64,000 bases of DNA from Candidatus Moraniibacteriota bacterium (GCA_016699385.1 CP064974.1:468466-532465); one strand, 5' to 3'. Shown: positions 6,019 through 32,901, counted from the stretch's first letter. Numbers and translations: made by a program. The notes: generated from the sequence alone by a model not told the origin.

Positions 6019-6552
6019 TTACTCGGTTTTCTTCCACGCACCCGAACCATCCTTCAGATCAAGCGAATGCACATCGAACGGTTCATCGAAGAATTTCTCC
6101 AGGATATGAAGACAAGCTTCTGCGACCGCACCCTCCCCTCCCTGGGAATTTGTCACGAAATCAGCCATCTCTTTCGTCCTGAAGAACGAATTTGCAGGCG
6201 CGATGCTATAAGCGACATACTTGAAGACGAGCGGATCAAATATCCCATCCCCCATATAAATCGTCTCCTCCGGATCGAATCGTTCACGAATCCATTCTAT
6301 CCGCTCAAACGTACTTACCTGATCGAGCGGGAGCTTCATGTCGTTGGAAATCCGCCTCTTGGTTATCGCGAAGCCGTTTTTGTCCCCGGAAACCGCATGA
6401 ATATAAAGCTTTCCTTTGAGAAGAGTAAGGGCGTCATTATCTTCCGGTCCGAACTTCTTCATCACTTTCCCATCAACGGTATAGTAAAATTTCCCATCGG
6501 TGAAAACACCATCGACATCAAGGATAAAGTTTTTGATCATTTTCTTTTCCAT
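6019..6552 (-). CDS. HAD-IIIA family sugar-phosphate phosphatase (KdsC-like)
   Basis: 177 aa; ILDVDGVFTDGKFYY motif as in Kdo8P-phosphatase KdsC/YrbI. Confidence 0.7.
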   Translation of the reverse strand: MEKKMIKNFILDVDGVFTDGKFYYTVDGKVMKKFGPEDNDALTLLKGKLYIHAVSGDKNGFAITKRRISNDMKLPLDQVSTFERIEWIRERFDPEETIYMGDGIFDPLVFKYVAYSIAPANSFFRTKEMADFVTNSQGGEGAVAEACLHILEKFFDEPFDVHSLDLKDGSGAWKKTE

Positions 6553-6557
6553 AATCC

Positions 6558-8141
6558 CTATTCTTCGTTAAGCGCACGCCATAAATTCAATTTCCCAAAA
6601 TAAAAGAGGAAGAGATCGAACGGATGATGGTGCAATGGCGACATATTGAGCCAAATAATCGCAGTGAGAACCATTACCTTCTTCCTATCATATTCGTTTC
6701 GGTCAAGAAAATCTAACAAGATTTTCTGACATTGCACAAGATTCTCCTTACGGAGAATATCACACGCAATCTCCTCCCTATCAATATCAATTGTAAAGAG
6801 ATTTTTATTCACAATGCTGTGATTCACAGTAAGATTGTGATTAAGCTTAGCAAAATCGTAATACATATCCCCAGAGCGGAGTAATCCTCCAAAGTTCTGC
6901 CTCCAGTCCAGAAGCGAAAATCCAGTCTTTGTCCTAATAATATTGTCAAGGATGAAATCACCATGAAAATGGCTCTGCTCTGCATTGCAAAGCCAGTCAA
7001 AATTCACCTTCTTCAAAATATCCCTCACCGAAGGAACATCCTCGCCATTAATAACACTTTTTCCATCCTTCACGCTGCGAGAGGTCATAAACGTCTTAAT
7101 CCGCTCTTCCGTCTTGGTCACATAAAAGTCATGACATATTTCCTTGAATCTCTTCCGAGACACTTCATCCTCCTTCTTCCAAAGATTCTTCTTTGACCAA
7201 TTGAGAAATTCTTTAAAATTTTCTGGAGCAGCAACATCCGAATACAGGTCTCCATTCACATACCGATACTGATAGAAATTTTCTTTCTGCCCTTCGATTC
7301 TTGGAACAAGTTTCCCAAGTACCTTCGCTCGTTCAACTCGCTCCGTCACATTCCGTTTTTCCGCAAAGAATTTCACAACAAACTTCTCAAAAATAAAGAT
7401 AGACTCATCTACCTTGTCGAGTATATGAAAGGAGTCACTAATATCTGTACGAGCCCAATGAAGGCTTTCGACATTTCCAATATCGTACCATTTTTTGAAT
7501 TCGACTGCCTGAAACGATACGCCACTTTCAATCATGTCCCGAATCGCATAGACATCGCCAAGTGCGCTATCATTCGGATTTCGTTTGTACATTTTCCGAA
7601 GACTCTTCCAGAAATCAGCATAACCGGAAATACCAATCAGTCCGATATGGAGAAAGTCCGGGTCAATCGTCCCCTTATCATACATCTGCTGAACCACCTG
7701 CCCATCATATACATCGAAGGAAGCATAGTGCGAAGATCCCTCGCCACGAAATCCGCCAATCCAATTCCTCCTTGGTGTAGGGATCTTTCCAATAACAATC
7801 GTATCGCAAGCATGATAGATAAATGGGCATTGGAGCAATGATTCCGCTTGGAGCATCGAGTAACCGAGACTCGTCCCAGGACCTTCATATTTCCCAACCT
7901 CCACAAATTCGAATTTTCTGTCTGGATAAACCAGACTAAGAAAATCCCGGACATGATCCGCAAAGTATCCAATCGTGATGACAAATTCAATATTCTTGGG
8001 GTATGCCTCGATTATATATGAAATAACAGGCTTTTTTCCAATTTTCACCAATGATTTATTGGTATACTTCGTGATATCCCCAAGCCGCGATCCGGTACCG
8101 GAAGTTGTAATGAGAACTTTGTATGCCGATTTCTCTTTCAT
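6558..8141 (-). CDS. bifunctional nucleotidyltransferase / APH-choline-kinase-fold kinase (LicC-LicA-like fusion)
   Basis: N-terminal NTP-transferase motif VLITTSGTGSRLGDITKYTNKSLVKIGKKPVI (G-x-G-x-R-L). C-terminal kinase catalytic HGDFILDNII (H-x-D-x4-N) as in choline kinase LicA / aminoglycoside phosphotransferases. Confidence 0.65.
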   Translation of the reverse strand: MKEKSAYKVLITTSGTGSRLGDITKYTNKSLVKIGKKPVISYIIEAYPKNIEFVITIGYFADHVRDFLSLVYPDRKFEFVEVGKYEGPGTSLGYSMLQAESLLQCPFIYHACDTIVIGKIPTPRRNWIGGFRGEGSSHYASFDVYDGQVVQQMYDKGTIDPDFLHIGLIGISGYADFWKSLRKMYKRNPNDSALGDVYAIRDMIESGVSFQAVEFKKWYDIGNVESLHWARTDISDSFHILDKVDESIFIFEKFVVKFFAEKRNVTERVERAKVLGKLVPRIEGQKENFYQYRYVNGDLYSDVAAPENFKEFLNWSKKNLWKKEDEVSRKRFKEICHDFYVTKTEERIKTFMTSRSVKDGKSVINGEDVPSVRDILKKVNFDWLCNAEQSHFHGDFILDNIIRTKTGFSLLDWRQNFGGLLRSGDMYYDFAKLNHNLTVNHSIVNKNLFTIDIDREEIACDILRKENLVQCQKILLDFLDRNEYDRKKVMVLTAIIWLNMSPLHHHPFDLFLFYFGKLNLWRALNEE

Positions 8142-8149
8142 GATGGTAG

Positions 8150-8821
8150 TTATAACAGAGTCGATCTGAATTTAACAATTCTATCCTCAAGATTGGCTGG
8201 TGGCTGAAAAATCGTTCCGGTTCCACATACAAGTATATTCGCGCCGGATTGCTTCATTTGCACACCGCTCTCCGGTGTTACGCCGCCATCTATCTCTATC
8301 AAGATGTTTCTTTCTATTTCATCTATTCTCTTCCGCAAATCAGCAATTTTCCGCATCGTCCCAGGAATCAATTTGTGTCCAACTATCCCAGGATTGATTG
8401 CCATAAGCATCACAATATCAAGATCCTCAAGGATATAATCCAGCACCGAAAGCGACGTCCCATAGTTAAGTGCCAGTCCTACTTGAACCCCAGCATCCTT
8501 AATATGCCTGACAGTCCGATGTACATGCTGGAGTGGCTCGATATGTGGCGTCAACGCTGTCGCTCCAGCATCAGCAAAGTCCTTTATATATGGTTCCGGA
8601 TCTTGCACCATCATATGAACTTCTATCGGCAAATTAGTTTTTGAGCGAATCGCCTTCAGATATTCCGGAAACAGACCGTATCGAGGGACAAACACCCCGT
8701 CCATTACGTCAAAGTGGATGGAGTCGACTCCTCCTTTCTCAAGTGCAGCCAAATCAACCTCGAGATTAAGTGGATTTCCACAAATAATCGACGCCGCCAG
8801 TTGACACTGGTGATTAAACAT
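8150..8821 (-). CDS. rpe: ribulose-phosphate 3-epimerase
   Basis: SIHFDVMDGVFVP...VHMMV...MLMAINPG...IEIDGG motifs co-linear with E. coli Rpe. Confidence 0.8.
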   Translation of the reverse strand: MFNHQCQLAASIICGNPLNLEVDLAALEKGGVDSIHFDVMDGVFVPRYGLFPEYLKAIRSKTNLPIEVHMMVQDPEPYIKDFADAGATALTPHIEPLQHVHRTVRHIKDAGVQVGLALNYGTSLSVLDYILEDLDIVMLMAINPGIVGHKLIPGTMRKIADLRKRIDEIERNILIEIDGGVTPESGVQMKQSGANILVCGTGTIFQPPANLEDRIVKFRSTLL

Positions 8822-8829
8822 AGATTTGA

Positions 8830-9384
8830 TTATTCAAGATTGGAGTGACGATTCCACATAGTGTCATGAGTCTCGCTCATCCTTTCCATAAGTTCAAGAA
8901 TGATTGCGTCATAGAATATGCCGAGACATTGTTCATTAAGCGTCGTCATCGGTTGAATAGAGGTGAATCCTTCAATTGGTTTTGTTTTCGACGGCGCCTT
9001 AACCTCAACAATCGTATCAGCAATTTTCCCCATCCTCGACGCCGTGTTTCCCGTAACAAGAGCTATTTTCGCACCATTTTTCTTAGCAATCTCAACAAGA
9101 TCATAAATCGTCTGTGTCTCTCCTGACCCGGAACTCACAAGAAATAAATCACCCTTCCCTATGGAGGGGACAATCGAATCTCCTAAGGTAAATGCCTCCA
9201 AACCAAGATGTCCTAAGCGCATACCAAACCCTCTTGTAGCCATACCAACACGCCCAGCCCCACAAACGACGATTTTTCTTGCATTAAGAATATCATTCAC
9301 AAGTCTTCCAGCTTCTTTTTCGTCGAGTTTTTCCAAGACAGACTCAATTTCCCTAAGAATTTTTTTCACATTTTCTTTCAACAT
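8830..9384 (-). CDS. SIS-domain sugar-phosphate isomerase (6-phospho-3-hexuloisomerase / arabinose-5-P isomerase-like)
   Basis: 184 aa; VVCGAGRVGMATRGFGMRLGHLG matches SIS isomerase GAGRSG...FAMRLMHLG core. Confidence 0.65.
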   Translation of the reverse strand: MLKENVKKILREIESVLEKLDEKEAGRLVNDILNARKIVVCGAGRVGMATRGFGMRLGHLGLEAFTLGDSIVPSIGKGDLFLVSSGSGETQTIYDLVEIAKKNGAKIALVTGNTASRMGKIADTIVEVKAPSKTKPIEGFTSIQPMTTLNEQCLGIFYDAIILELMERMSETHDTMWNRHSNLE

Positions 9385-23872: not shown

Positions 23873-24502
23873 TCAAAAAATCTTCAAAGAATCTAGAAAT
23901 CTCTGAAAAACTGCTTCGGATTCTTTCGAAGTTGAAAACTGATATCCATCGAAAGTAATCCTCCGAATGTCATAATACCAATCTTTTTTATCAAGGAAAA
24001 TTATTGCCTCACCAGGAATAGGGCAATACCCTTCCCCAGCTCCACATGATTGCTTCTCCTTGCTAAGGAATATATCATTACTCCCGATGTGGATGCGTGA
24101 CCAGTCCTTCAAAAAAGATCTGTCGAGTGGCGCACCCCCTTCAGAAGAACTACCCGTAGGAGCTACATATACCTGAATGTCACCGTACGCCCTCTTCAAA
24201 TCATCTGTCTTTGCAACAAAAGAGACCATTGGGATATAATCCTTGTCTTTTACAGTGTAGACATTTGAAGGATACTGTACTTCGAAGCCGTATCGATTAC
24301 TCCTATATGTTTCCCAATCCGCGGAATCCGCTACCATTAGAACTCCTTCTGGGGCAGATACTGATTGAGATTGATCTTGAGATACCAGTTCCGAACGAAA
24401 AGAAGACTTTTTAGTATAAAGAAAAGCTAACCCAAGAATGGGAATGATTACCGCTCCTGCGATGCTAACGATAGTTGTCCTCTTTGACATAAAAACTGAC
24501 AT
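23873..24502 (-). CDS. hypothetical membrane-anchored/secreted protein
   Basis: 209 aa; N-terminal TM helix; no family recognized; lies immediately distal to the CRISPR array. Confidence 0.4.
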   Translation of the reverse strand: MSVFMSKRTTIVSIAGAVIIPILGLAFLYTKKSSFRSELVSQDQSQSVSAPEGVLMVADSADWETYRSNRYGFEVQYPSNVYTVKDKDYIPMVSFVAKTDDLKRAYGDIQVYVAPTGSSSEGGAPLDRSFLKDWSRIHIGSNDIFLSKEKQSCGAGEGYCPIPGEAIIFLDKKDWYYDIRRITFDGYQFSTSKESEAVFQRFLDSLKIF

Positions 24503-24954
24503 AGAAATAGAAGGCGTGTCCAGTTCCCTCTTTGAGAAAGAGTACTACAAACACTGGGAAACGTCAATATTATGTATGCGTCCACCCATCTTTGCACTCC
24601 CCGGTCAGAAAAGGATTATCGCCACTCGTTTGGCCTGCGATGAATTGTAGCGGAGAACATTTGTTTCCAAAAGCGAAGTGTACCCGTTCGGTATTGAACC
24701 AGAGGAGATACTCCACAAGCTTCTGATTGAAAACCTGAATATCCTAAGAATCTATCTCAATCCCCCCCCTCAAAGATATATGATTCTTGCCAGAGCTTTA
24801 TCTAAAACAAAACTATGCCAAGAAAAATCTATCCGAGTGATATCACTCGAGAACAGTTTGAGACCATTTATTTCGTTCTCAAATCAGACAAAAAGAAAAC
24901 CAAACCAAGAAAACATAATCTCTACGATATCTTTTGTGCTCTGCTCTACATCCT

Positions 24955-26599
24955 GAAATCGTGTTGTCAGATTGTGTAGGTCTTATTGCGTGTACGGCTA
25001 CACGGTAGTATTCGGATATCTACAAAAGTAGAAATTGTGTAGGTCTTATTGCGCCGAATACTCCGAAAGAAACTTTGAAATCTACAAAAGTAGAAATTGT
25101 GTAGGTCTTATTGCGCTCCGAACGGGGAACTACTACTTTTACATCTACAAAAGTAGAAATTGTGTAGGTCTTATTGCGGGTTCTGTGGATAATGTGGCAA
25201 CGGAATCTACAAAAGTAGAAATTGTGTAGGTCTTATTGCGAAGAGATGATATTCTTTGCTTTACTATCTACAAAAGTAGAAATTGTGTAGGTCTTATTGC
25301 GATACACCAAAGAAAATAACCAAACTAATCTACAAAAGTAGAAATTGTGTAGGTCTTATTGCGAACCAAGCAAAGAAACTTGAGAAGAATCTACAAAAGT
25401 AGAAATTGTGTAGGTCTTATTGCGGCGCGTGAATAACTCTCTCTATTAAATCTACAAAAGTAGAAATTGTGTAGGTCTTATTGCGATACGCGAGCATAAC
25501 AAAGCCTTCAATCTACAAAAGTAGAAATTGTGTAGGTCTTATTGCGGTCACCATTTTCAGTGCCGATTTTGATCTACAAAAGTAGAAATTGTGTAGGTCT
25601 TATTGCGAGGGAACACCCGGGCTTGTTTCCGAAATCTACAAAAGTAGAAATTGTGTAGGTCTTATTGCGTTCGATTTCTGGGAAGTTCTCACTGTTATCT
25701 ACAAAAGTAGAAATTGTGTAGGTCTTATTGCGAGGAGATGGATGGTGGTATGCTAGAATCTACAAAAGTAGAAATTGTGTAGGTCTTATTGCGTAAAAAT
25801 CCTTGATAGCAATAATGAAATCTACAAAAGTAGAAATTGTGTAGGTCTTATTGCGCAACTGGAATTAACCAGCATCGTCCCATCTACAAAAGTAGAAATT
25901 GTGTAGGTCTTATTGCGGTGAGGAATATGGATACAGTGATGGAATCTACAAAAGTAGAAATTGTGTAGGTCTTATTGCGGATCTTTGAGAAAAACGAACT
26001 CGTATATCTACAAAAGTAGAAATTGTGTAGGTCTTATTGCGGTGCGGTCATTGGGTACTGGATCAAAATCTACAAAAGTAGAAATTGTGTAGGTCTTATT
26101 GCGGCGTGTCGAACGAGAGAAGCAGGCTATCTACAAAAGTAGAAATTGTGTAGGTCTTATTGCGGTCTGCTTTCTTACTGCTTCGGCGAGGATCTACAAA
26201 AGTAGAAATTGTGTAGGTCTTATTGCGCGTCGAAGAAATAAAGAGCAGTCAAATCTACAAAAGTAGAAATTGTGTAGGTCTTATTGCGCCGATGTGGCTA
26301 AAGCCATATCGTTGTATCTACAAAAGTAGAAATTGTGTAGGTCTTATTGCGATGGATTCATCCAGCCCGTCGTCATATCTACAAAAGTAGAAATTGTGTA
26401 GGTCTTATTGCGATGATAACGCCTACCGAAGACGCACTATCTACAAAAGTAGAAATTGTGTAGGTCTTATTGCGATGTCCATGTAAACCTGACCACCCAT
26501 ATCTACAAAAGTAGAAATTGTGTAGGTCTTATTGCGAGTATAGATATTGGGTTGATAAGTCGAATCTACAAAAGTAGAAATTGTGTAGGTCTTATTGCG
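24955..26599 (-). CRISPR. type V-A CRISPR array: 26 identical 36-nt repeats plus 1 degenerate terminal repeat, spacers 25-27 nt
   Basis: Plus-strand repeat ATCTACAAAAGTAGAAATTGTGTAGGTCTTATTGCG at 25018, 25080, 25143 ... 26564 (period 61-63 nt). The reverse complement, CGCAAUAAGACCUACACAAUUUCUACUUUUGUAGAU, ends in the canonical Cas12a crRNA handle (UCUAC-UUUU-GUAGA stem-loop), so the array is transcribed on the minus strand from the cas2-proximal leader. The repeat at 24955-24990 keeps only the leader-proximal 20 nt (ATTGTGTAGGTCTTATTGCG). Confidence 0.95.
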
Positions 26600-26801
26600 A
26601 GCCATAAAGGCTTGGATAAGCCAAGAATATACAAATCCCGAAAAAATAGGGACGAACTCTTGGCTTATCCATGCAAAACCCAGATATTCAGGTCGGGGTT
26701 TTGCGTTTTTCTGAATACAGACGCAATAAAAAATATAAGGCCCATTTCAATTTCCACCTAAAAGGTGATTGAATTGTCAAGGTTCTTCTTGCGGGGAAAA
26801 G
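26600..26801 (-). promoter_or_regulatory. CRISPR leader (about 200 nt, AT-rich) with candidate -35 TTGACA
   Basis: Region between the cas2 stop and the first repeat. Minus-strand TTGACA at 26780..26775. No clean -10 identified. Confidence 0.5.
26609..26675. repeat. inverted repeat in CRISPR leader abutting the first repeat (two copies of palindromic CTTGG-ATAAG-CCAAG motif, 16/17 bp complementary, 32-nt spacer)
   Basis: GGCTTGGATAAGCCAAGA (26609-26626) versus TCTTGGCTTATCCATGC (26659-26675). Each arm is itself palindromic. The loop contains the small hairpin TCCC-GAAAAAATA-GGGA. Confidence 0.55.
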
Positions 26802-27092
26802 TCATGAGATCATGATAACCGTCTCTTCTTCACGTTTTGCATACCCGTAGCGCTTCACCTTCTTGGCGCATCCTTCGCACACCTGGAACACCACGATGCT
26901 ATCCGCTCCGGTAAACGTCTTCTTGTACTTCAATTCTATCTCAATCAGCACATTTTGCAAGACCCGATCGCTCTCGCGCAACTGGAATACGCTGTATTGG
27001 ATTCGCCTACCGTATTTCTCCAGAAACTTGGAAAAACGAGTGCGCGTTCGATTATCTTCAAAGTCGTAGGAAACTATTAGCATAAATATCAA
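26802..27092 (-). CDS. cas2: CRISPR-associated endoribonuclease Cas2
   Basis: 96 aa; MLIVSYDFEDNRTRTRFSKFLEKYGRRIQYSVFQ typical Cas2 N-terminus; ATGA overlap with cas1. Confidence 0.85.
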   Translation of the reverse strand: MIFMLIVSYDFEDNRTRTRFSKFLEKYGRRIQYSVFQLRESDRVLQNVLIEIELKYKKTFTGADSIVVFQVCEGCAKKVKRYGYAKREEETVIMIS

Positions 27093-28060
27093 CGGATGAT
27101 AAACGACTGAAAACTTTCTTCATCGTCATTCAATACTCGGTAATAATATCCTCGGACGAAATCGTATATTTCGTTCTTGTGTTTCAAAATTTCTTCGAGA
27201 AATATCTTCGTATATCGCGCGCCACTTTGATAGTTCAACTGATAATTTCCATTTTTTACGGAAAAGTCCTTTGAATCAAAACGGTTCAAAGTGTGAATCT
27301 TGAGAAGTGAACGATCAACGATGCACCGAAACGGCTCCATCATATCGCATGCAAGCGACTTACGTTGGAAAAACAACTGATGATACACGCCCTTATAGGT
27401 ATCAAATCCAAAGAGACGCAAGAGCGAATCAGTGAAATGAAAGAGGTAGGTATATCCCATATCGAGCAATATATTATTCTCATCCACTTTGCCACGTGGC
27501 ACTCGCCGATACCAACCAAGCGACCCGAAATACTCACGAAAATACATCCGCCCCACCGTCCCCTCTATACCGCGAAGCGTTGCCAAATCCTCTGCACTCG
27601 CTATTTTTTCTTCCCATTCGCGCTTCCGATCAAGTAGCGACTTCCCCGAGAGTGACTCCTTGCCAATCGAGCGAATCAATGCAATCTGATTTCTAATTTT
27701 GTTCGAAACAATCTTGCGAGAAATTTCCAGGCATGCATTCAAAGAAAGATTGTATTGTTTTTGTCGCAACAAATAATTTCCTTCGGCATACGGACAGACA
27801 GAGGCGTATGTTCGAAACGACCGGTCAAGCAGGAACAGTGATACGCCGTTCTTCGAACAATTCGCAACGAGCTTTGTCGTCAAAGTCGCCTCTCCGTGAA
27901 GAAATATAGCCACAAGCAACTGAAGTGGCACTTTTTCTTTCGTTCCCTCTTCATTCGCAATAACAATATTTTCATTTCGAAACGAAAGATCGCACTCACC
28001 GAGTGTTGCGGTACTGATAAAGGCGATCTGTTTTTTCTCGAAATCCGGAGCAGTCAGCAT
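27089..28060 (-). CDS. cas1: CRISPR-associated integrase Cas1
   Basis: 323 aa; Cas1 fold and length; positioned between cas4 and cas2 as in V-A loci. Confidence 0.85.
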   Translation of the reverse strand: MLTAPDFEKKQIAFISTATLGECDLSFRNENIVIANEEGTKEKVPLQLLVAIFLHGEATLTTKLVANCSKNGVSLFLLDRSFRTYASVCPYAEGNYLLRQKQYNLSLNACLEISRKIVSNKIRNQIALIRSIGKESLSGKSLLDRKREWEEKIASAEDLATLRGIEGTVGRMYFREYFGSLGWYRRVPRGKVDENNILLDMGYTYLFHFTDSLLRLFGFDTYKGVYHQLFFQRKSLACDMMEPFRCIVDRSLLKIHTLNRFDSKDFSVKNGNYQLNYQSGARYTKIFLEEILKHKNEIYDFVRGYYYRVLNDDEESFQSFIIR

Positions 28061-28075
28061 AGGGTATGAAGTCGA

Positions 28076-28651
28076 CTATGAATTTTCTTCCAAAACAACA
28101 CGAGGAGCATCACCACGACACAACGTCCGATAAATACACCCGGCACATTTCTTCTCGTCGGCTATCGGATGCGTCTTTGATATATCGAAAGTCCGAATTC
28201 GATCGATCAAACCGAGAAACGACTCCCAGTCCTCAGCAGAAATATCGACGGGATATTTCTTGTTATCCGAAAGCGAGTGCAACACCGCCTCCCGAACTTC
28301 GTATCCTATTTCTTCGAGACAGAGGATTTGCCCCAAGACTTGCCACTTGTACCCGGGATATACAAATCGAATCTTCGTCTTCCGCTCAATGAGCGTCTTT
28401 GTCTCCACATCGTATATATCAATCTTCCCGACCAACCCGTATTTCTCGGACGAGACGCTCATCCCCTGCCGATACCGACTCCGCGAAGAATACGCGCCCG
28501 CATCCGAAGCCGAATGCCGAAGTGTCCCCATCTTTTGCGGAGACGCTTTGTAGTGTCCTTCGCCAATCGCTTCATATACGCCATGAAAATACAGCGACCG
28601 CGGACAAAATGCAAAATCGTTGAGCGCTGTTATTGGAATTTCGGAAAACAT
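28076..28651 (-). CDS. cas4: CRISPR-associated exonuclease Cas4 (RecB-like nuclease with Fe-S cluster cysteines)
   Basis: 191 aa; N-terminal FAFCPRSLYF and C-terminal CAGCIYRTLC cysteines (Cx...CxxCxxxxxC cluster pattern) plus RecB-nuclease core (D...E.K). Confidence 0.85.
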   Translation of the reverse strand: MFSEIPITALNDFAFCPRSLYFHGVYEAIGEGHYKASPQKMGTLRHSASDAGAYSSRSRYRQGMSVSSEKYGLVGKIDIYDVETKTLIERKTKIRFVYPGYKWQVLGQILCLEEIGYEVREAVLHSLSDNKKYPVDISAEDWESFLGLIDRIRTFDISKTHPIADEKKCAGCIYRTLCRGDAPRVVLEENS

Positions 28652-31600
28652 TTATTTCTTTTCTTTCCATTTCAAATCCTTTTCGTTTTCCTCTATCCAT
28701 TTCCGCCAACTGCTCTCGCCAGAAAGCCACGCAGACCATTCCTCATCGGAAATATACGTTTTATATCCAAGACGAATATGCTCCGCCATAACGATTCCTT
28801 TACGCGCAATGTTGTACGCACCATTGCTATCGCCAGAACTCGGCAAAGCTAGCTTCTCATCCCTCTGCTCAGCATCCCAATACTTCCGCGAATCGAAATG
28901 CTCTCCGGTGTGCTCATTGCGAACTGGAGAAAGAAGAAAATCAGAATCGCGCTCATTTTCCTTTTCCCCAGTATTCCTGATCTGTTGGATGAGATCGATG
29001 CAATGGCGAAGCGACTCATATGCCGGGTATTCTGAAATTTTCACAAGTTCTCCGCCCCCCTTCATTTGTGTAAAAAGCGATCGATTCCTGTCTTTTTTGT
29101 CGAGGTTTGCAAAAAGTGAGTCAAGCATTTCGACGACATCCTCCTTTTCTACCTTCCACTCATTCTTGTCCGTTCCACGCTTCCCGCGAAAACGATCGAG
29201 ACTTTCGCCATTCTTTCCCGAGTAGAGTGTCCACGTTTTTCCATTTCGTATCTCCCTATTATTCTCTTTCTTTTTCCCCTTTTCTATTCGTACTTTTATT
29301 TTCTCAACATATGTAAATGCATAATCTTTCCCATCGAAGACGATATCCGAGAAAGTTTCGAGAATTTCTCTCTTGATACTTTCTTCCGAACCGCGCTTCA
29401 AATAAACTGTCTTGCGCCATCCGGTAAGCGGATCGGTTTGCGACGTATAATTGGCACGAGTATACAGCATGATGCCGAATTGCTTGGAGTTGATATCGCC
29501 GAAATTATTGACTGGTGGCGTCAATTGAAAGGCTTTTGTGACAGAGCCAATTTCACCAATTTTTGCAGACTTATCAACAAGAAAGTTTAATTTTTTCGCA
29601 AGTGCAAGTTCAAGCTTCTGATAAACCTGCTTTTCTATTTTCTGGCGCCCGCGCTTGAAACCAATATTCAAATCCTCCAACACAATAAGTGCGCCCTTTT
29701 CGACAGCAATATCAACAATTTTCCGAACAACCTGAGAAATATACCCCTCCTTCAAGTCCTTGATTGTCCCGATGGTCTTCCAATTTTTTCGTGCAAAATC
29801 CCGCTCACCAGCTCGCGCTTCAAGCAATGCATTGTAATCTTTTCCGCCAACAACATTAAAACTTCCTTGATCCAACAGTTCTCCTTTTTCACTTACAAGC
29901 GACCAATATGCCAAGTGCTTTTCCCCGCGGTCGATACCGAGGAAAATACATTGCGCTCCATCCCTAAGTTTTTCAGAGATTTCCCTATTGACAGCTCGAT
30001 TCTTCATACAAAAATTAAGCGTAATCGGAACATGAAAAAGAAATTTTTCTTTCGAAAATCGGAAGTTCTTGATAATGCTCTTCCCACTATTATCATCCGC
30101 TCTTTGCTGTTTCTCCTCAGGAAGCGCTGATCTGTAAAATACCTCAGCCTCTCCATTCAATTTCGGACGATTTTCGATATCACGAAACATCGCGTCCCAA
30201 TACATCGTGTGCAGATTATTTTTGTGCCCTTCTTTTTTTCCGCTATTTGAATCCTGATTGTGAATCTCAAAGAGATAGAGCCTTCCCTCGCTAACCCAAG
30301 AGTCAACAACAGTCTTATTTACGGAAACAAAAGAATTCTTATACCCTTGCTTCTCAACATCCAGATAAAATTGGCTAATATCAACATATTCTTCAGTCGG
30401 ACGAAATGAAAAGTCAAAACAATTCCACTCCTCATATTTTTGAAGTCCTGATTTATAGAAATCAATGATCTTTCCAAGGCTTTCTCTCGAGAATCCGTCA
30501 GAGCCTTTCTTGAAATCGCCATGATCATATATTTTTAGTATTTCATCTGTAGCACCGTATTTTTTTCGATTAGATTTCGGCAAAAGACACTTCGGAAGCA
30601 TCTTGTTCGGTCCAGGAAGAAGCTTGTACTCCATCTTTGAAAAAATTTCACCCTTTTCAACAACATACAACTTATTCTCTTTTTGCTTTTTGAAGAGAGA
30701 ATTATATCCTTTTTCTTTTCTCTTTGAGATAATACCAAGAAAATATTTTTCATCCCTATCTCGAAAGATGACACAGAGATTATCGGACTCTTTATTCATA
30801 TCCCACCCGCTAGCGAGCGTGCTTTGTCCAAAATTCAATTTCAACTTGTTTTTCTTTGCATCGTCTTGAGGCTTCTTGGTAAGGAAATTTCGTGTCGCGT
30901 CATAATATCGAAACCAATTCGTCTCATCTTTTTCCGAATCCAAAAATACTTTCAGATATTCGGCAAGAACGGAATCGAGAGCTTCGCCTTTTATCTTGCT
31001 AGGACGAACGACAAAGTATTTAATCATTTGCGTCGCCGAAAGCATCTCATCAAGCCACGACTTAATTGCTTCCTTACTCGTCTCACTTGTGTACTCCGAA
31101 AGATGCGCGATATTTCCCGATTCACGCACAAACGACTCTACATGCTCTCCAATGTCCGACAGAATCATTTCCAAAAGCGCCCGCGACGGCTTCTGTGCAT
31201 TTTGCACAATCGACGAGTATCGCTCATTTCTTTTCTTTCGTCGTTCACATTGTTCGTAGTCGATATCTTCCTTCCGTTCGCATTCAATTGTTTCCGTAAG
31301 ACTTTCCTTAAAGAATACGCCCGAATCGCGCCAATGCCATTCTTCTTCAAGAGATTCCGGCTTAGAATCGAGAACTGTGAAGAAATCTTCAAGATCAATA
31401 GCTTCGGGAATCCTCACATCTTCTTGACTTCCTTTTACTGAATCTTGAAATACCTTTGCCGTTTTAAGTCTATCTTTCAAGCTGTGCCAATCCGAAAAGT
31501 ACCGATTTGATATCGTATTCATTGCTGCTTTCGACCAATAGAAACCAGTGAAGTTCTCTCGTGATCGAATATACGCAATTAAGTCTGGCAGTGAGCCAAG

Positions 31601-32791
31601 AGAAGCGACATCTATATCAGATACATCCCCACGGTCAGATGCTCGAAAATACCTCCCTCCAGCTTCCGATACATCATGAAGCAACTCTTCCAAAGAATAA
31701 AATTTCTTCTTCGATTGATTCGCTCGTTTCTTTTCGGCCTCGGATTTCTTCTCGTCTGTCAATTCGAAGAACAGAGCATCTCGCCTTCCACATCCAATCT
31801 GCCTGTAAAGCGTTTTGAAAAATTTGAGCTTCTCGCTTTTTTCACCATGAGCTTGATTGTAACGGTTTATAAGGAAATTTGCATTTCCGACTGCCTCGTT
31901 ATACGATTCTATCTCTGTTTGGGACAGACACTCAGTGAAGTACTCGATACGAAAAAGATTCGGATCAATCGAAATACACGGTGTTTCTTTCTTGTCCTTT
32001 CCCTTCATGACAAGCGGGTCTCCAAGCTTTCTTAAGGATTCAAAAATATCTTCATACACTCTCTGTCTCCCTCGAAATATGAGAACATTGTCGCAAAATA
32101 TTGGAAGATTCTCATGTACAATACGCGTGGCGACTGCCGTAGCCTTCTCGTCCCTTGTTACATAATAATTTTCCCGATTTTGGTTGAACCCAGAAAAATA
32201 AGTAAAAAATCCTTCGAAGATATTCAGATACTTATGAATTTCATCCAGTGAAAGAATATCGGAAAAACGATCAGCATTCTTTCGGATATATTCCAAAATT
32301 CCAACTTCAGTAAGAATTTTGAAACCACTCCCACTAAATATTTCCTTTCCTTTTTCTGTTTTCCCTGCCACATTTTTCCAGGATTCAGCGACTTTTATAT
32401 ATGCATCACCAAAGGCACTTCGCATTTTTTTCTCCTCAACCTCGAAAGCTTTCTCTTTTATATCGCTCTTCCTTTCGTATAAATCCAGATAAGAAGAAAA
32501 TTTTATACTTTTGACAGATTCAGACTCAAGACTTTCAGTTATAAAGTCCTCATGAATTTTATCGAATATTGGCTTGAGTGCCTGATAGGCATCCTCGATA
32601 TTTTGATCCGAAAGAAACGTGCGTAGATTTTCATCATACCCGAATTGCGTCCGCATATTCTCAAGAGTCTTCCCTATTGGCTTCAATTCAAACCGCAATG
32701 TTTTTGACAATGAATACTTCCCAGTAAAATCATCAAAAATGCCCTTCCTGTTTTCTCCATTCATAGGAAAAATGTGAAACGATTTATACAA
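28652..32791 (-). CDS. cas12a: type V-A CRISPR effector Cas12a (Cpf1)
   Basis: 1379-aa ORF. N-terminal [19 protein letters not shown], then [12 protein letters not shown] and [12 protein letters not shown]. RuvC-I [12 protein letters not shown], RuvC-II [26 protein letters not shown], RuvC-III [13 protein letters not shown]. All are co-linear with FnCas12a and Parcubacteria PbCpf1. ORF-track start 32791 is a TTG; the likely true start is ATG at 32764 ([20 protein letters not shown]). Confidence 0.95.
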   Translation of the reverse strand: [1379 protein letters not shown]

Positions 32792-32812: not shown

Positions 32813-32901
32813 AAAAAAGCCGAAAAGGGACAGCGGCCGTCGCCCAGCAGAGCATCATGCCAAACGGCAATGTGTTGCCAGAACCGCTATCCCTTTTCGG
32901 C
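32813..32901 (-). promoter_or_regulatory. large stem-loop (18-bp stem) plus U-tract immediately upstream of cas12a start: putative attenuator/terminator-like leader element
   Basis: Arms 32819-32836 (GCCGAAAAGGGACAGCGG) and 32884-32901 (CCGCTATCCCTTTTCGGC). The single mismatch is C.A on the plus strand but a U.G wobble on the minus (cas12a-sense) strand. The 47-nt loop has an inner hairpin GGCAA-TGTG-TTGCC. On the minus strand a T6 run (32813-32818) follows, 22 nt before the cas12a start. Confidence 0.45.

What the first reader, a model, noticed from the sequence alone, without database searches (positions are those of the whole stretch)
24955..26599. CRISPR array architecture: 26 perfect 36-nt repeats, 25-27-nt spacers, degenerate leader-distal repeat that has lost the crRNA handle
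All 26 full repeats are identical, which suggests a recently active or strongly maintained array. Spacers are 25-27 nt, at the short end for Cas12a arrays. The terminal repeat (24955-24990) keeps only the half that in the crRNA-sense strand is the 5' non-handle part (CGCAAUAAGACCUACACAAU), while the handle half is scrambled. This fits it being the leader-distal trailer repeat.
Basis: seen in the sequence. Interest (0 to 1): 0.55.

Follow-up and report, generated by a model that had tools for sequence, protein, structure and literature searches.

The report
Cas12a CRISPR array, IS-truncated trailer repeat
This is an ordinary, intact-looking Cas12a (type V-A) CRISPR array read from the minus strand; its last, half-length repeat did not decay by mutation but was cut off where a fragment of an IS5-family insertion sequence now abuts it, so it matters only as a tidy example of known biology.

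Summary
There are 26 identical 36-nt repeats at 25018-26599. The 26 spacers are 25-27 nt. A partial repeat matches the consensus only over 24971-24990.

The array lies directly downstream of cas12a-cas4-cas1-cas2 and a leader, all on the minus strand. In that sense each repeat ends in the Cas12a handle AAUUUCUACUUUUGUAGAU.

Two points need refining:
- **Spacer length.** Spacers of 25-27 nt are about 2 nt shorter than in Francisella (27-29). They are normal for this clade: five relatives with multi-spacer arrays have 25-29 nt.
- **The "scrambled" half of the terminal repeat.** It is not decayed repeat. It is in-frame coding sequence of the first 52 codons of an IS5-family transposase. Homology to the transposase stops exactly at 24970|24971. 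This is a breakpoint joining a truncated IS to a truncated repeat, most simply one deletion that removed the old trailer end.

All five related arrays whose trailer end was readable also have terminal repeats altered at the 3' end, four by loss of 3-11 nt. Handle-disrupted terminal Cas12a repeats that prevent an "extraneous crRNA" are already published (Liao 2019).

No protospacers were found and there is no self-targeting within the window. Verdict: a new member of a known kind, of low interest.

The parts
28652..32764 (-). cas12a (1370 aa counted from the ATG at 32764; the ORF lister starts at a TTG at 32791)
   Evidence: NCBIfam TIGR04330 cas_Cpf1, E 6e-210. Pfam REC1, PI and RuvC_1. FnCas12a structures match at E about 1e-146. 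RuvC motifs GIDRGE, LEDLN and GDSNGAYNIA and the RNase-site motif FLFHVPITLNF are present. 99% identical to P0001.
28076..28651 (-). cas4
   Evidence: Pfam Cas_Cas4, E 5e-13.
27089..28060 (-). cas1
   Evidence: Pfam Cas_Cas1, E 1e-55.
26802..27092 (-). cas2
   Evidence: Pfam CRISPR_Cas2, E 2.5e-14.
26600..26801 (-). Leader (39.6% GC). It contains a conserved inverted repeat, 26614-26626 / 26658-26670.
   Evidence: Nearly identical to the leader of L003, whose contig ends in the first repeat. Alignable to the leaders of L001, L002, L004, L006 and L009; 12 of 25 predicted pairs show compensatory changes. GC.
25018..26599 (-). 26 identical 36-nt repeats and 25 spacers of 25-27 nt. crRNA-sense repeat: CGCAAUAAGACCUACACAAUUUCUACUUUUGUAGAU.
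   Evidence: The 3' hairpin UCUAC/GUAGA folds at -4.8 kcal/mol, z -2.7.
24991..25017 (-). Oldest (leader-distal) spacer, 27 nt. It still has an intact handle on its 5' side.
24971..24990 (-). Truncated terminal repeat. Only the first 20 nt (crRNA sense) remain, so there is no handle or hairpin.
   Evidence: 20/20 identity, then 2/16. The sequence no longer folds: -0.4 kcal/mol, z 0.2.
24746..24970 (+). 5' fragment (about 225 of about 800 bp) of an IS5-family insertion sequence. The ORF at 24815-24970 encodes the first 52 residues of the DUF4096 transposase N-terminus and reads toward the array.
   Evidence: NCBIfam NF033580 IS5 transposase, E 9.5e-8, residues 6-52 matching profile positions 1-47 of 258. 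Pfam DUF4096, E 9.5e-4. 53 homologues, best 71% identity. Protein and DNA alignments show homologues continuing ...CQ-WRMLP / TGGAGAATG where the window switches to repeat sequence. The left boundary near 24746 is approximate.

Best explanation
This is the CRISPR array of a complete type V-A (Cas12a) system in an uncultured bacterium, probably of the Patescibacteria/CPR group.

**How it most likely works**
- The array is transcribed from the leader at 26801-26600 on the minus strand.
- Cas12a itself cuts the pre-crRNA upstream of each repeat hairpin. This gives crRNAs that start AAUUUCUACUUUUGUAGAU, followed by the 25-27-nt spacer, which is then trimmed at its 3' end.
- Cas4-Cas1-Cas2 add new spacers at the leader end. 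In this clade their ruler gives 25-29-nt spacers.

**The leader-distal end**
- This end is not an eroded repeat. It is a breakpoint at 24970|24971.
- On one side, a repeat is cut after its 20th nucleotide. On the other, an IS5-family element is cut after codon 52 of its transposase.
- The most parsimonious history is that an IS inserted at or near the old trailer, possibly inside the array. A single later deletion, with one end inside the IS and the other inside a repeat, then removed the rest of the IS and an unknown number of older repeat-spacer units.

**Consequences**
- In Cas12a crRNAs the handle lies 5' of its spacer. The last spacer (24991-25017) therefore keeps a functional handle.
- The handle-less stub cannot seed an 'extraneous' crRNA guided by the flanking chromosomal sequence.

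**Shown versus inferred**
- Shown: sequence architecture, gene content, the homology break points and the pattern in relatives.
- Inferred: transcription, processing, current activity and the order of the IS and deletion events.
For: - **Array and spacers:**
- **cas operon on the minus strand, with an intact Cas12a:**
- **Handle hairpin:** present in the full repeat, absent in the stub.
- **Leader:** homologous to the leaders of related loci, and L003 has the same leader-repeat junction.
- **IS5 N-terminal fragment ending exactly at the repeat boundary:** (translation ...LKSCCQ|IV*; family hits; 53 homologues; W53 conserved in at least 90% of homologues, replaced here; DNA alignment: L012 and L013 continue TGGAGAATGTTGCC where the window reads ATTGTGTAGGTCTTATTGCG).
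- **No second half:** no DDE domain, no second IS part and no further repeat or half-repeat anywhere in the 64 kb.
- **Relatives:** terminal repeats keep the 5' end exactly and are altered at the 3' end. L002 keeps 25 nt, L006 29, L004 31 and L010 32-33. L001 keeps 35 of 36, differing only at the final base, and is followed by a further partial repeat.
- **Literature:** a consensus terminal Cas12a repeat yields a functional extraneous crRNA, and 11 of 14 native terminal repeats are disrupted in the handle (PMC6610086).
- **Spacer lengths in relatives:** 25-29 nt.
Against: - There are no expression data, so strand, processing and activity are inferred from family knowledge.
- No full-length copy of this particular IS was found (best homologue 71% aa, about 73% DNA). 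The IS side of the junction is therefore defined by homology, not by an identical reference copy.
- No sister strain with the ancestral trailer was available. The L003 contig stops in the first repeat. The deletion is therefore inferred, and its extent is unknown.
- Relatives show truncated terminal repeats without any IS. A pre-existing truncated repeat that later came to abut an IS remnant cannot be strictly excluded.
- The consensus promoter scan found no sigma-70-like site in the leader. CPR promoters may simply not fit that consensus.
Confidence: 0.8

Rival explanations
1. The terminal repeat is an old repeat whose handle half decayed by accumulated point mutations. The resemblance of the flank to a transposase would then be irrelevant.
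For: Degenerate terminal repeats are common in CRISPR arrays in general (established knowledge). The Pfam hit on the fragment is below the gathering cut-off: 19.8 bits against 34.3.
Against: Identity is 20/20 and then 2/16, a step rather than a gradient. The non-matching part lies in frame within a 52-codon ORF. That ORF matches IS5-family transposase N-termini (NCBIfam E 9.5e-8; 53 database homologues up to 71% identical with E down to 2e-14). Homology ends at exactly the same nucleotide.
Confidence: 0.05
2. The IS/repeat junction is an assembly artefact: a chimeric join of two repetitive elements in a metagenome-assembled contig. The real array would then continue or end differently.
For: Both CRISPR arrays and IS copies break or tangle short-read assemblies. 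L003, L005, L008 and L014 all end inside a repeat or an IS.
Against: No shared k-mer or microhomology is visible at the junction that could seed a false join. The 26 identical repeats assembled cleanly through 1.6 kb, which suggests long reads or a well-resolved assembly. The flanking sequence continues into ordinary genes.
Confidence: 0.07
3. The repeat was already truncated at nucleotide 20, as terminal repeats are truncated in relatives. An unrelated event later placed an already-truncated IS remnant next to it. The array would then have lost no units.
For: Four of the five relatives whose trailer end was readable have sharply 3'-truncated terminal repeats with no IS nearby, and the fifth differs at its last base.
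Against: This needs two independent breakpoints to coincide at one nucleotide, whereas a single deletion explains both truncations. The stub here (20 nt) is shorter than any seen in relatives (25-35 nt).
Confidence: 0.08

Closest known systems
Type V-A CRISPR-Cas arrays of Francisella novicida U112 and other characterised Cas12a systems (FnCas12a, AsCas12a, LbCas12a)
   Same: The gene order cas12a-cas4-cas1-cas2-leader-array is the same. Repeats are 36 nt with the 3' handle AAUUUCUAC-loop-GUAGAU. From my own knowledge of the Fn repeat, it differs from FnCas12a only in the loop (UUUU against UGUU). There is no anti-repeat or tracrRNA. Cas12a carries the RuvC and RNase-site motifs.
   Different: Cas12a is a distant orthologue whose closest named relatives are from CPR/Patescibacteria MAGs. 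Spacers are 25-27 nt against 27-29 in F. novicida (PMC13034035). No standalone repeat-like unit lies upstream of cas12a, unlike about half of V-A loci.
Handle-disrupted native terminal repeats of Cas12a arrays that prevent extraneous crRNAs (Liao et al. 2019, Nat Commun, PMC6610086)
   Same: The terminal repeat lacks the hairpin that Cas12a needs. It therefore cannot give a crRNA guided by the downstream flank, while the last true spacer remains usable.
   Different: Here the handle is removed wholesale by a breakpoint with an IS fragment, not altered by a few substitutions. Whether an extraneous crRNA is absent was not measured.
IS-element insertions and IS-associated deletions in CRISPR arrays (for example IS6110 in the Mycobacterium tuberculosis DR locus; from established knowledge, not checked here)
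   Same: A mobile element is associated with loss of part of an array.
   Different: Only a 225-bp internal-breakpoint fragment of an IS5-family (IS427/IS1031-like, DUF4096 N-terminus) element remains. The breakpoint lies inside the IS, not at its terminal inverted repeat. This points to ordinary deletion rather than a transposase-mediated adjacent deletion.
Related uncultured-bacterium V-A loci fetched here (L014 activated sludge; L009/L010 OFQD01; L004 ERZ1757541; L006 JGI 3300025142)
   Same: The repeat is identical (L014) or differs by one base (L004, L009, L010). Leaders are homologous. Spacers are 25-29 nt. Terminal repeats are 3'-truncated.
   Different: No spacers are shared with L009/L010, the only arrays compared. 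Their Cas12a is only 55-58% identical although Cas4, Cas1 and Cas2 reach 90-93% in L014. None has an IS at the trailer.

Membership tests
Type V-A (Cas12a) CRISPR-Cas locus | Single large effector with Cas12a REC/PI/RuvC architecture and no HNH domain | tested here: met
   TIGR04330, E 6e-210. Pfam REC1, Cpf1_PI-like and RuvC_1. FnCas12a PDB chains match at E about 1e-146. RuvC motifs are present.
Type V-A (Cas12a) CRISPR-Cas locus | Adjacent cas4-cas1-cas2 adaptation module on the same strand, followed by leader and array | tested here: met
   The same order is seen in L003, L006, L014 and L016.
Type V-A (Cas12a) CRISPR-Cas locus | Repeat of about 36 nt whose 3' end forms the UCUAC-loop-GUAGA(U) pseudoknot handle | tested here: met
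   The repeat ends AAUUUCUACUUUUGUAGAU. The hairpin is the minimum-free-energy structure at -4.8 kcal/mol.
Type V-A (Cas12a) CRISPR-Cas locus | No tracrRNA or anti-repeat | tested here: met
   No repeat-like or reverse-complement repeat-like sequence lies outside the array in the 64 kb, allowing up to 3 mismatches per half plus a blastn-short search.
Type V-A (Cas12a) CRISPR-Cas locus | Cas12a processes its own pre-crRNA (His/Lys RNase site) | not testable with these tools
   The motif FLFHVPITLNFCMK resembles the As/Fn RNase site as I recall it. Activity needs an experiment.
Type V-A (Cas12a) CRISPR-Cas locus | T-rich 5' PAM on protospacers | tested here: inconclusive
   No protospacer was found. 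Phage database matches all have E >= 2. Plasmids gave none. The 8 newest spacers gave nothing in IMG/VR. One 18-nt hit does not extend.
Handle-disrupted Cas12a terminal repeat (Liao 2019) | The leader-distal repeat deviates from the consensus in the 3' hairpin region needed for Cas12a recognition | tested here: met
   The 16 handle-side nucleotides are replaced, and the stub folds no better than shuffles. Relatives show the same loss or alteration of the 3' end.
Handle-disrupted Cas12a terminal repeat (Liao 2019) | No extraneous crRNA is produced from the terminal repeat | not testable with these tools
   Needs small-RNA sequencing.
IS5-family insertion sequence | N-terminal DUF4096 region of the transposase | tested here: met
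   NF033580, E 9.5e-8 over profile positions 1-47. 53 homologues annotated as transposase or DUF4096.
IS5-family insertion sequence | DDE catalytic domain and two terminal inverted repeats (a complete, mobile element) | tested here: not met
   The ORF stops after 54 codons. There is no DDE domain and no right end. Compare L012, where DDE_Tnp_1 follows. It is a dead fragment, not an IS.

The most novel reading that the evidence does not exclude
The most novel reading the evidence does not exclude has two parts. First, in this CPR-associated Cas12a clade the trailer repeat may be systematically kept handle-less by selection for deletions or rearrangements that remove the 3' part while leaving the 5' part exact. 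Four of five related arrays and this one show clean truncation, and the fifth differs only at its last base. The IS-mediated case here would be one caught-in-the-act example. Second, the covarying 13-bp inverted repeat in the leader (26614-26626 / 26658-26670), conserved down to 40%-identical Cas12a loci, may be an undescribed leader element. It could be an integration-site or regulator-binding structure specific to these V-A systems.
Probability: 0.25. Interest if true: 0.35.

Novelty: new member of a known kind. Interest (0 to 1): 0.15.

Why it matters
It matters little beyond annotation. The finding documents a complete, probably functional type V-A system with a 26-spacer array in an uncultured lineage. 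Its Cas12a orthologue is only about 40-58% identical to the other complete loci fetched here and distant from the characterised enzymes. It uses the widely shared AAUUUCUACUUUUGUAGAU handle and short (25-27 nt) spacers. The IS-truncated trailer is a clean natural example of how a Cas12a array can acquire a handle-less terminal repeat in one step. That fits the published idea that such repeats avoid extraneous, potentially self-targeting crRNAs. It also warns that the array's oldest spacers may have been lost, so the array cannot be read as a complete infection history.

Tried and rejected
- **Exact look-up of the window's Cas12a, with two alternative starts:** not on record.
- **GTDB genome scan with Cas12a:** only two Gracilibacteria loci at about 40% identity. 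The source genome was not found.
- **Metagenome scan with the repeat:** only two contigs of a different organism, with no shared spacers. No sister strain showed the ancestral trailer.
- **L003, the 99%-identical locus:** it stops in the first repeat, so it says nothing about the trailer.
- **Rfam:** no family matched the array or anything else in the window.
- **Protospacer searches:** the phage and plasmid collections and IMG/VR (8 spacers) gave nothing beyond chance.
- **Self-targeting within the window:** the longest off-array match is 16 nt.
- **A second copy of the IS fragment in the window:** none.
- **L008, Moraniibacteriota:** it shares only 73%-identical IS sequence at a contig end, in a different context.
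- **Sigma-70 promoter scan of the leader:** no hit on the minus strand.
- **Rejected: plus-strand transcription.** The handle motif, cas orientation and leader homology all point the other way.
- **Rejected: a complete IS inserted into a repeat.** There is no DDE domain, no right end and no other half-repeat.

Full report
**Observation.**
- An exact-match scan finds 26 copies of the 36-mer ATCTACAAAAGTAGAAATTGTGTAGGTCTTATTGCG between 25018 and 26599. There are none elsewhere in the 64 kb on either strand.
- The repeat finder and TRF give the same picture, with start-to-start spacing of 61-63 nt.
- The 25 internal spacers are 25 nt (9), 26 nt (11) and 27 nt (5). A 26th spacer of 27 nt (24991-25017) separates the first full repeat from a partial repeat.
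Only 2 of the 16 positions of 24955-24970 do.

**Context and orientation.** Four ORFs lie immediately above the array on the minus strand.
- Cas12a: 32764-28652, 1370 aa. TIGR04330 E 6e-210; Pfam REC1, PI and RuvC; FnCas12a structures at E about 1e-146.
- Cas4: 28651-28076. Cas1: 28060-27089. Cas2: 27092-26802.
- Cas12a carries the RuvC motifs GIDRGE, LEDLN and GDSNGAYNIA, and an FLFHVPITLNF motif at the position of the RNase site.
- In minus-strand sense the repeat reads CGCAAUAAGACCUACACAAUUUCUACUUUUGUAGAU. Its last 15 nt form the UCUAC/GUAGA hairpin as the minimum-free-energy structure (-4.8 kcal/mol, z -2.7).
- The 202 nt between cas2 and the first repeat are nearly identical to the corresponding stretch of L003, a Logan contig whose Cas12a is 99% identical and which ends in the first repeat. 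They are alignable to the leaders of more distant loci.
- No anti-repeat or standalone repeat-like unit exists elsewhere in the window.

The cas orientation, handle polarity, leader homology and position of the partial repeat all agree. The array is read on the minus strand, from 26599 down to 24971. This is inference from sequence and family knowledge; there are no expression data.

**Spacer length.** Native F. novicida spacers are 27-29 nt (PMC13034035). A V-A system assayed in E. coli acquires spacers with a mode of 29 nt (PMC9419969). The 25-27 nt seen here is therefore about 2 nt short of the model systems. Related loci show it is the clade norm. All use 36-nt repeats.

| Locus | Spacer length (nt) |
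|---|---|
| L001 | 26-27 |
| L002 | 25-29 |
| L006 | 25-28 |
| L009 | 25-27 |
| L010 | 25-28 |
| L014 | 27-29 (two spacers read) |

The length most likely reflects the ruler of this clade's Cas1-Cas2(-Cas4) complex. It is not a peculiarity of this array.

**The terminal repeat.** The 'scrambled' half is not decayed repeat.
- An ORF starts at ATG 24815 on the plus strand and reads MPRKIYPSDITREQFETIYFVLKSDKKKTKPRKHNLYDIFCALLYILKSCCQ. It then continues IV* inside the repeat stub.
- These 52 residues match the N-terminus of IS5-family transposases. NCBIfam NF033580 gives E 9.5e-8, with residues 6-52 on profile positions 1-47 of 258. Pfam DUF4096 gives E 9.5e-4, below its gathering score.
- A database search returns 53 homologues, up to 71% identical, all DUF4096 or 'transposase'.
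- In the protein alignment the homologues continue ...GCQ-WRMLPxDFPKW. The Trp after CQ is conserved in at least 90% of them and is replaced here.
- In the DNA alignment with two IS copies (L012, L013), homology runs from about 24746 to 24970. There the IS copies read TGGAGAATGTTGCC, and the window reads ATTGTGTAGGTCTTATTGCG, the repeat.
- L012 shows the full element is about 0.8 kb, with a DDE_Tnp_1 part downstream. None of that is present here, and there is no other IS piece or half-repeat in the window.

So 24970|24971 joins an internally truncated IS to an internally truncated repeat. One deletion with an end in each explains both. It implies that the original trailer, and possibly older repeat-spacer units, are gone. 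The junction is shown. The order of events and the amount lost are inferred.

**Comparison with relatives and the literature.** In related arrays the terminal repeat also keeps its 5' part exactly and is altered at its 3' end.

| Locus | Nucleotides of the 36-nt repeat kept |
|---|---|
| L002 | 25 |
| L006 | 29 |
| L004 | 31 |
| L010 | 32-33, followed by a terminator-like hairpin |
| L001 | 35 (only the final base differs), then a further partial repeat |
| This window | 20 |

Liao et al. 2019 showed that a consensus terminal repeat in an FnCas12a array yields a functional 'extraneous' crRNA guided by the downstream flank. They found that 11 of 14 native V-A terminal repeats carry handle-disrupting changes, and that a native terminal repeat abolishes that targeting (PMC6610086). 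The stub here fits this known category. It no longer folds. The last spacer is unaffected because its handle comes from the intact repeat on its 5' side. What differs is the route to handle loss, a rearrangement with an IS. That is unremarkable given how often IS elements disturb arrays.

**Spacer targets.**
- The whole array queried against the phage collection gives only chance-level hits (E >= 2).
- It gives nothing against plasmids.
- The PAM-proximal 18-20 nt of the eight newest spacers give no match in IMG/VR. The single exception is an 18-nt hit that does not extend and lacks a T-rich PAM.
- No spacer has an off-array match longer than 16 nt in the window.

The PAM and the 'recently active' claim therefore remain untested.

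**Source.** Neither the exact Cas12a nor a close genome is in the collections.
- Named relatives of Cas12a are from Patescibacteria/CPR MAGs: Moraniibacteriota (88% identity, partial), Taylorbacteria, Magasanikbacteria, Gracilibacteria and Peregrinibacteria.
- An IS homologue also comes from a Moraniibacteriota MAG.
- The CRISPR-cas stretch is lower in GC (0.39-0.45) than its flanks (0.47-0.50), as is typical of acquired defence loci.

**Verdict.** This is a canonical type V-A array with a correct orientation call. It is a new member of a known kind and of low interest.

Noticed in passing
window 26614-26626 and 26658-26670 (leader, minus-strand sense); L001, L002, L004, L006, L009, L014, L016 leaders: A 13-bp perfect inverted repeat (GGATAAGCCAAGA / TCTTGGCTTATCC) with arms 31 nt apart sits 14 nt from the first repeat. 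Equivalent inverted repeats occur in the leaders of loci whose Cas12a is only 40-58% identical. RNAalifold on six leaders gives 25 pairs, 12 with compensatory changes. The function is unknown. It could be a protein-binding palindrome around the array promoter or an integration-site element.
   Followed up: partly
L014 (ENA ERZ937806, activated sludge) 6905-9096: L014 carries exactly the same 36-nt repeat. Its Cas4, Cas1 and Cas2 are 90%, 93% and 93% identical to the window's, but its Cas12a is only 58% identical. The adaptation module plus array and the effector gene appear to have been shuffled independently.
   Followed up: partly
L004 16894-17850 (ENA ERZ1757541 contig_7543): This array has a one-mismatch version of the repeat but irregular unit lengths (46-109 nt) and variant repeats. 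There is no cas1 and only a cas2 remnant. It looks like a decaying array.
   Followed up: no
L016 about 6186-6221: This is a complete cas12a-cas4-cas1-cas2-leader locus followed by a single repeat and no spacer, that is, a 'naive' one-repeat array.
   Followed up: no
L017 11328-17225: In this relative, an 1123-aa ORF with no Pfam hit, a NYN-domain protein and a PIF1-like helicase lie between cas12a and a weak cas4. No cas1 was called.
   Followed up: no
window 32819-32901, minus strand (between yceG-like gene and cas12a): A very stable 83-nt hairpin (about -57 kcal/mol with flanks) followed by TTTTT lies about 55 nt upstream of the cas12a start. There is no Rfam match. It could be a terminator of the upstream gene or a regulatory or REP-like element.
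   Followed up: partly
window 24833-24850, minus strand: A terminator-like hairpin, TCGAGTGATATCACTCGG followed by ATAGATTTTT, lies about 120 nt past the array end inside the IS fragment. It is formed by a palindrome that is conserved in the IS transposase coding sequence. It could incidentally terminate the pre-crRNA.
   Followed up: no
window 24001-32000: The CRISPR-cas region has lower GC (0.39-0.45) than the flanking 10 kb on either side (0.47-0.51). GC skew is negative across nearly the whole window; only the 24001-26000 bin, which covers most of the array, is slightly positive.
   Followed up: no
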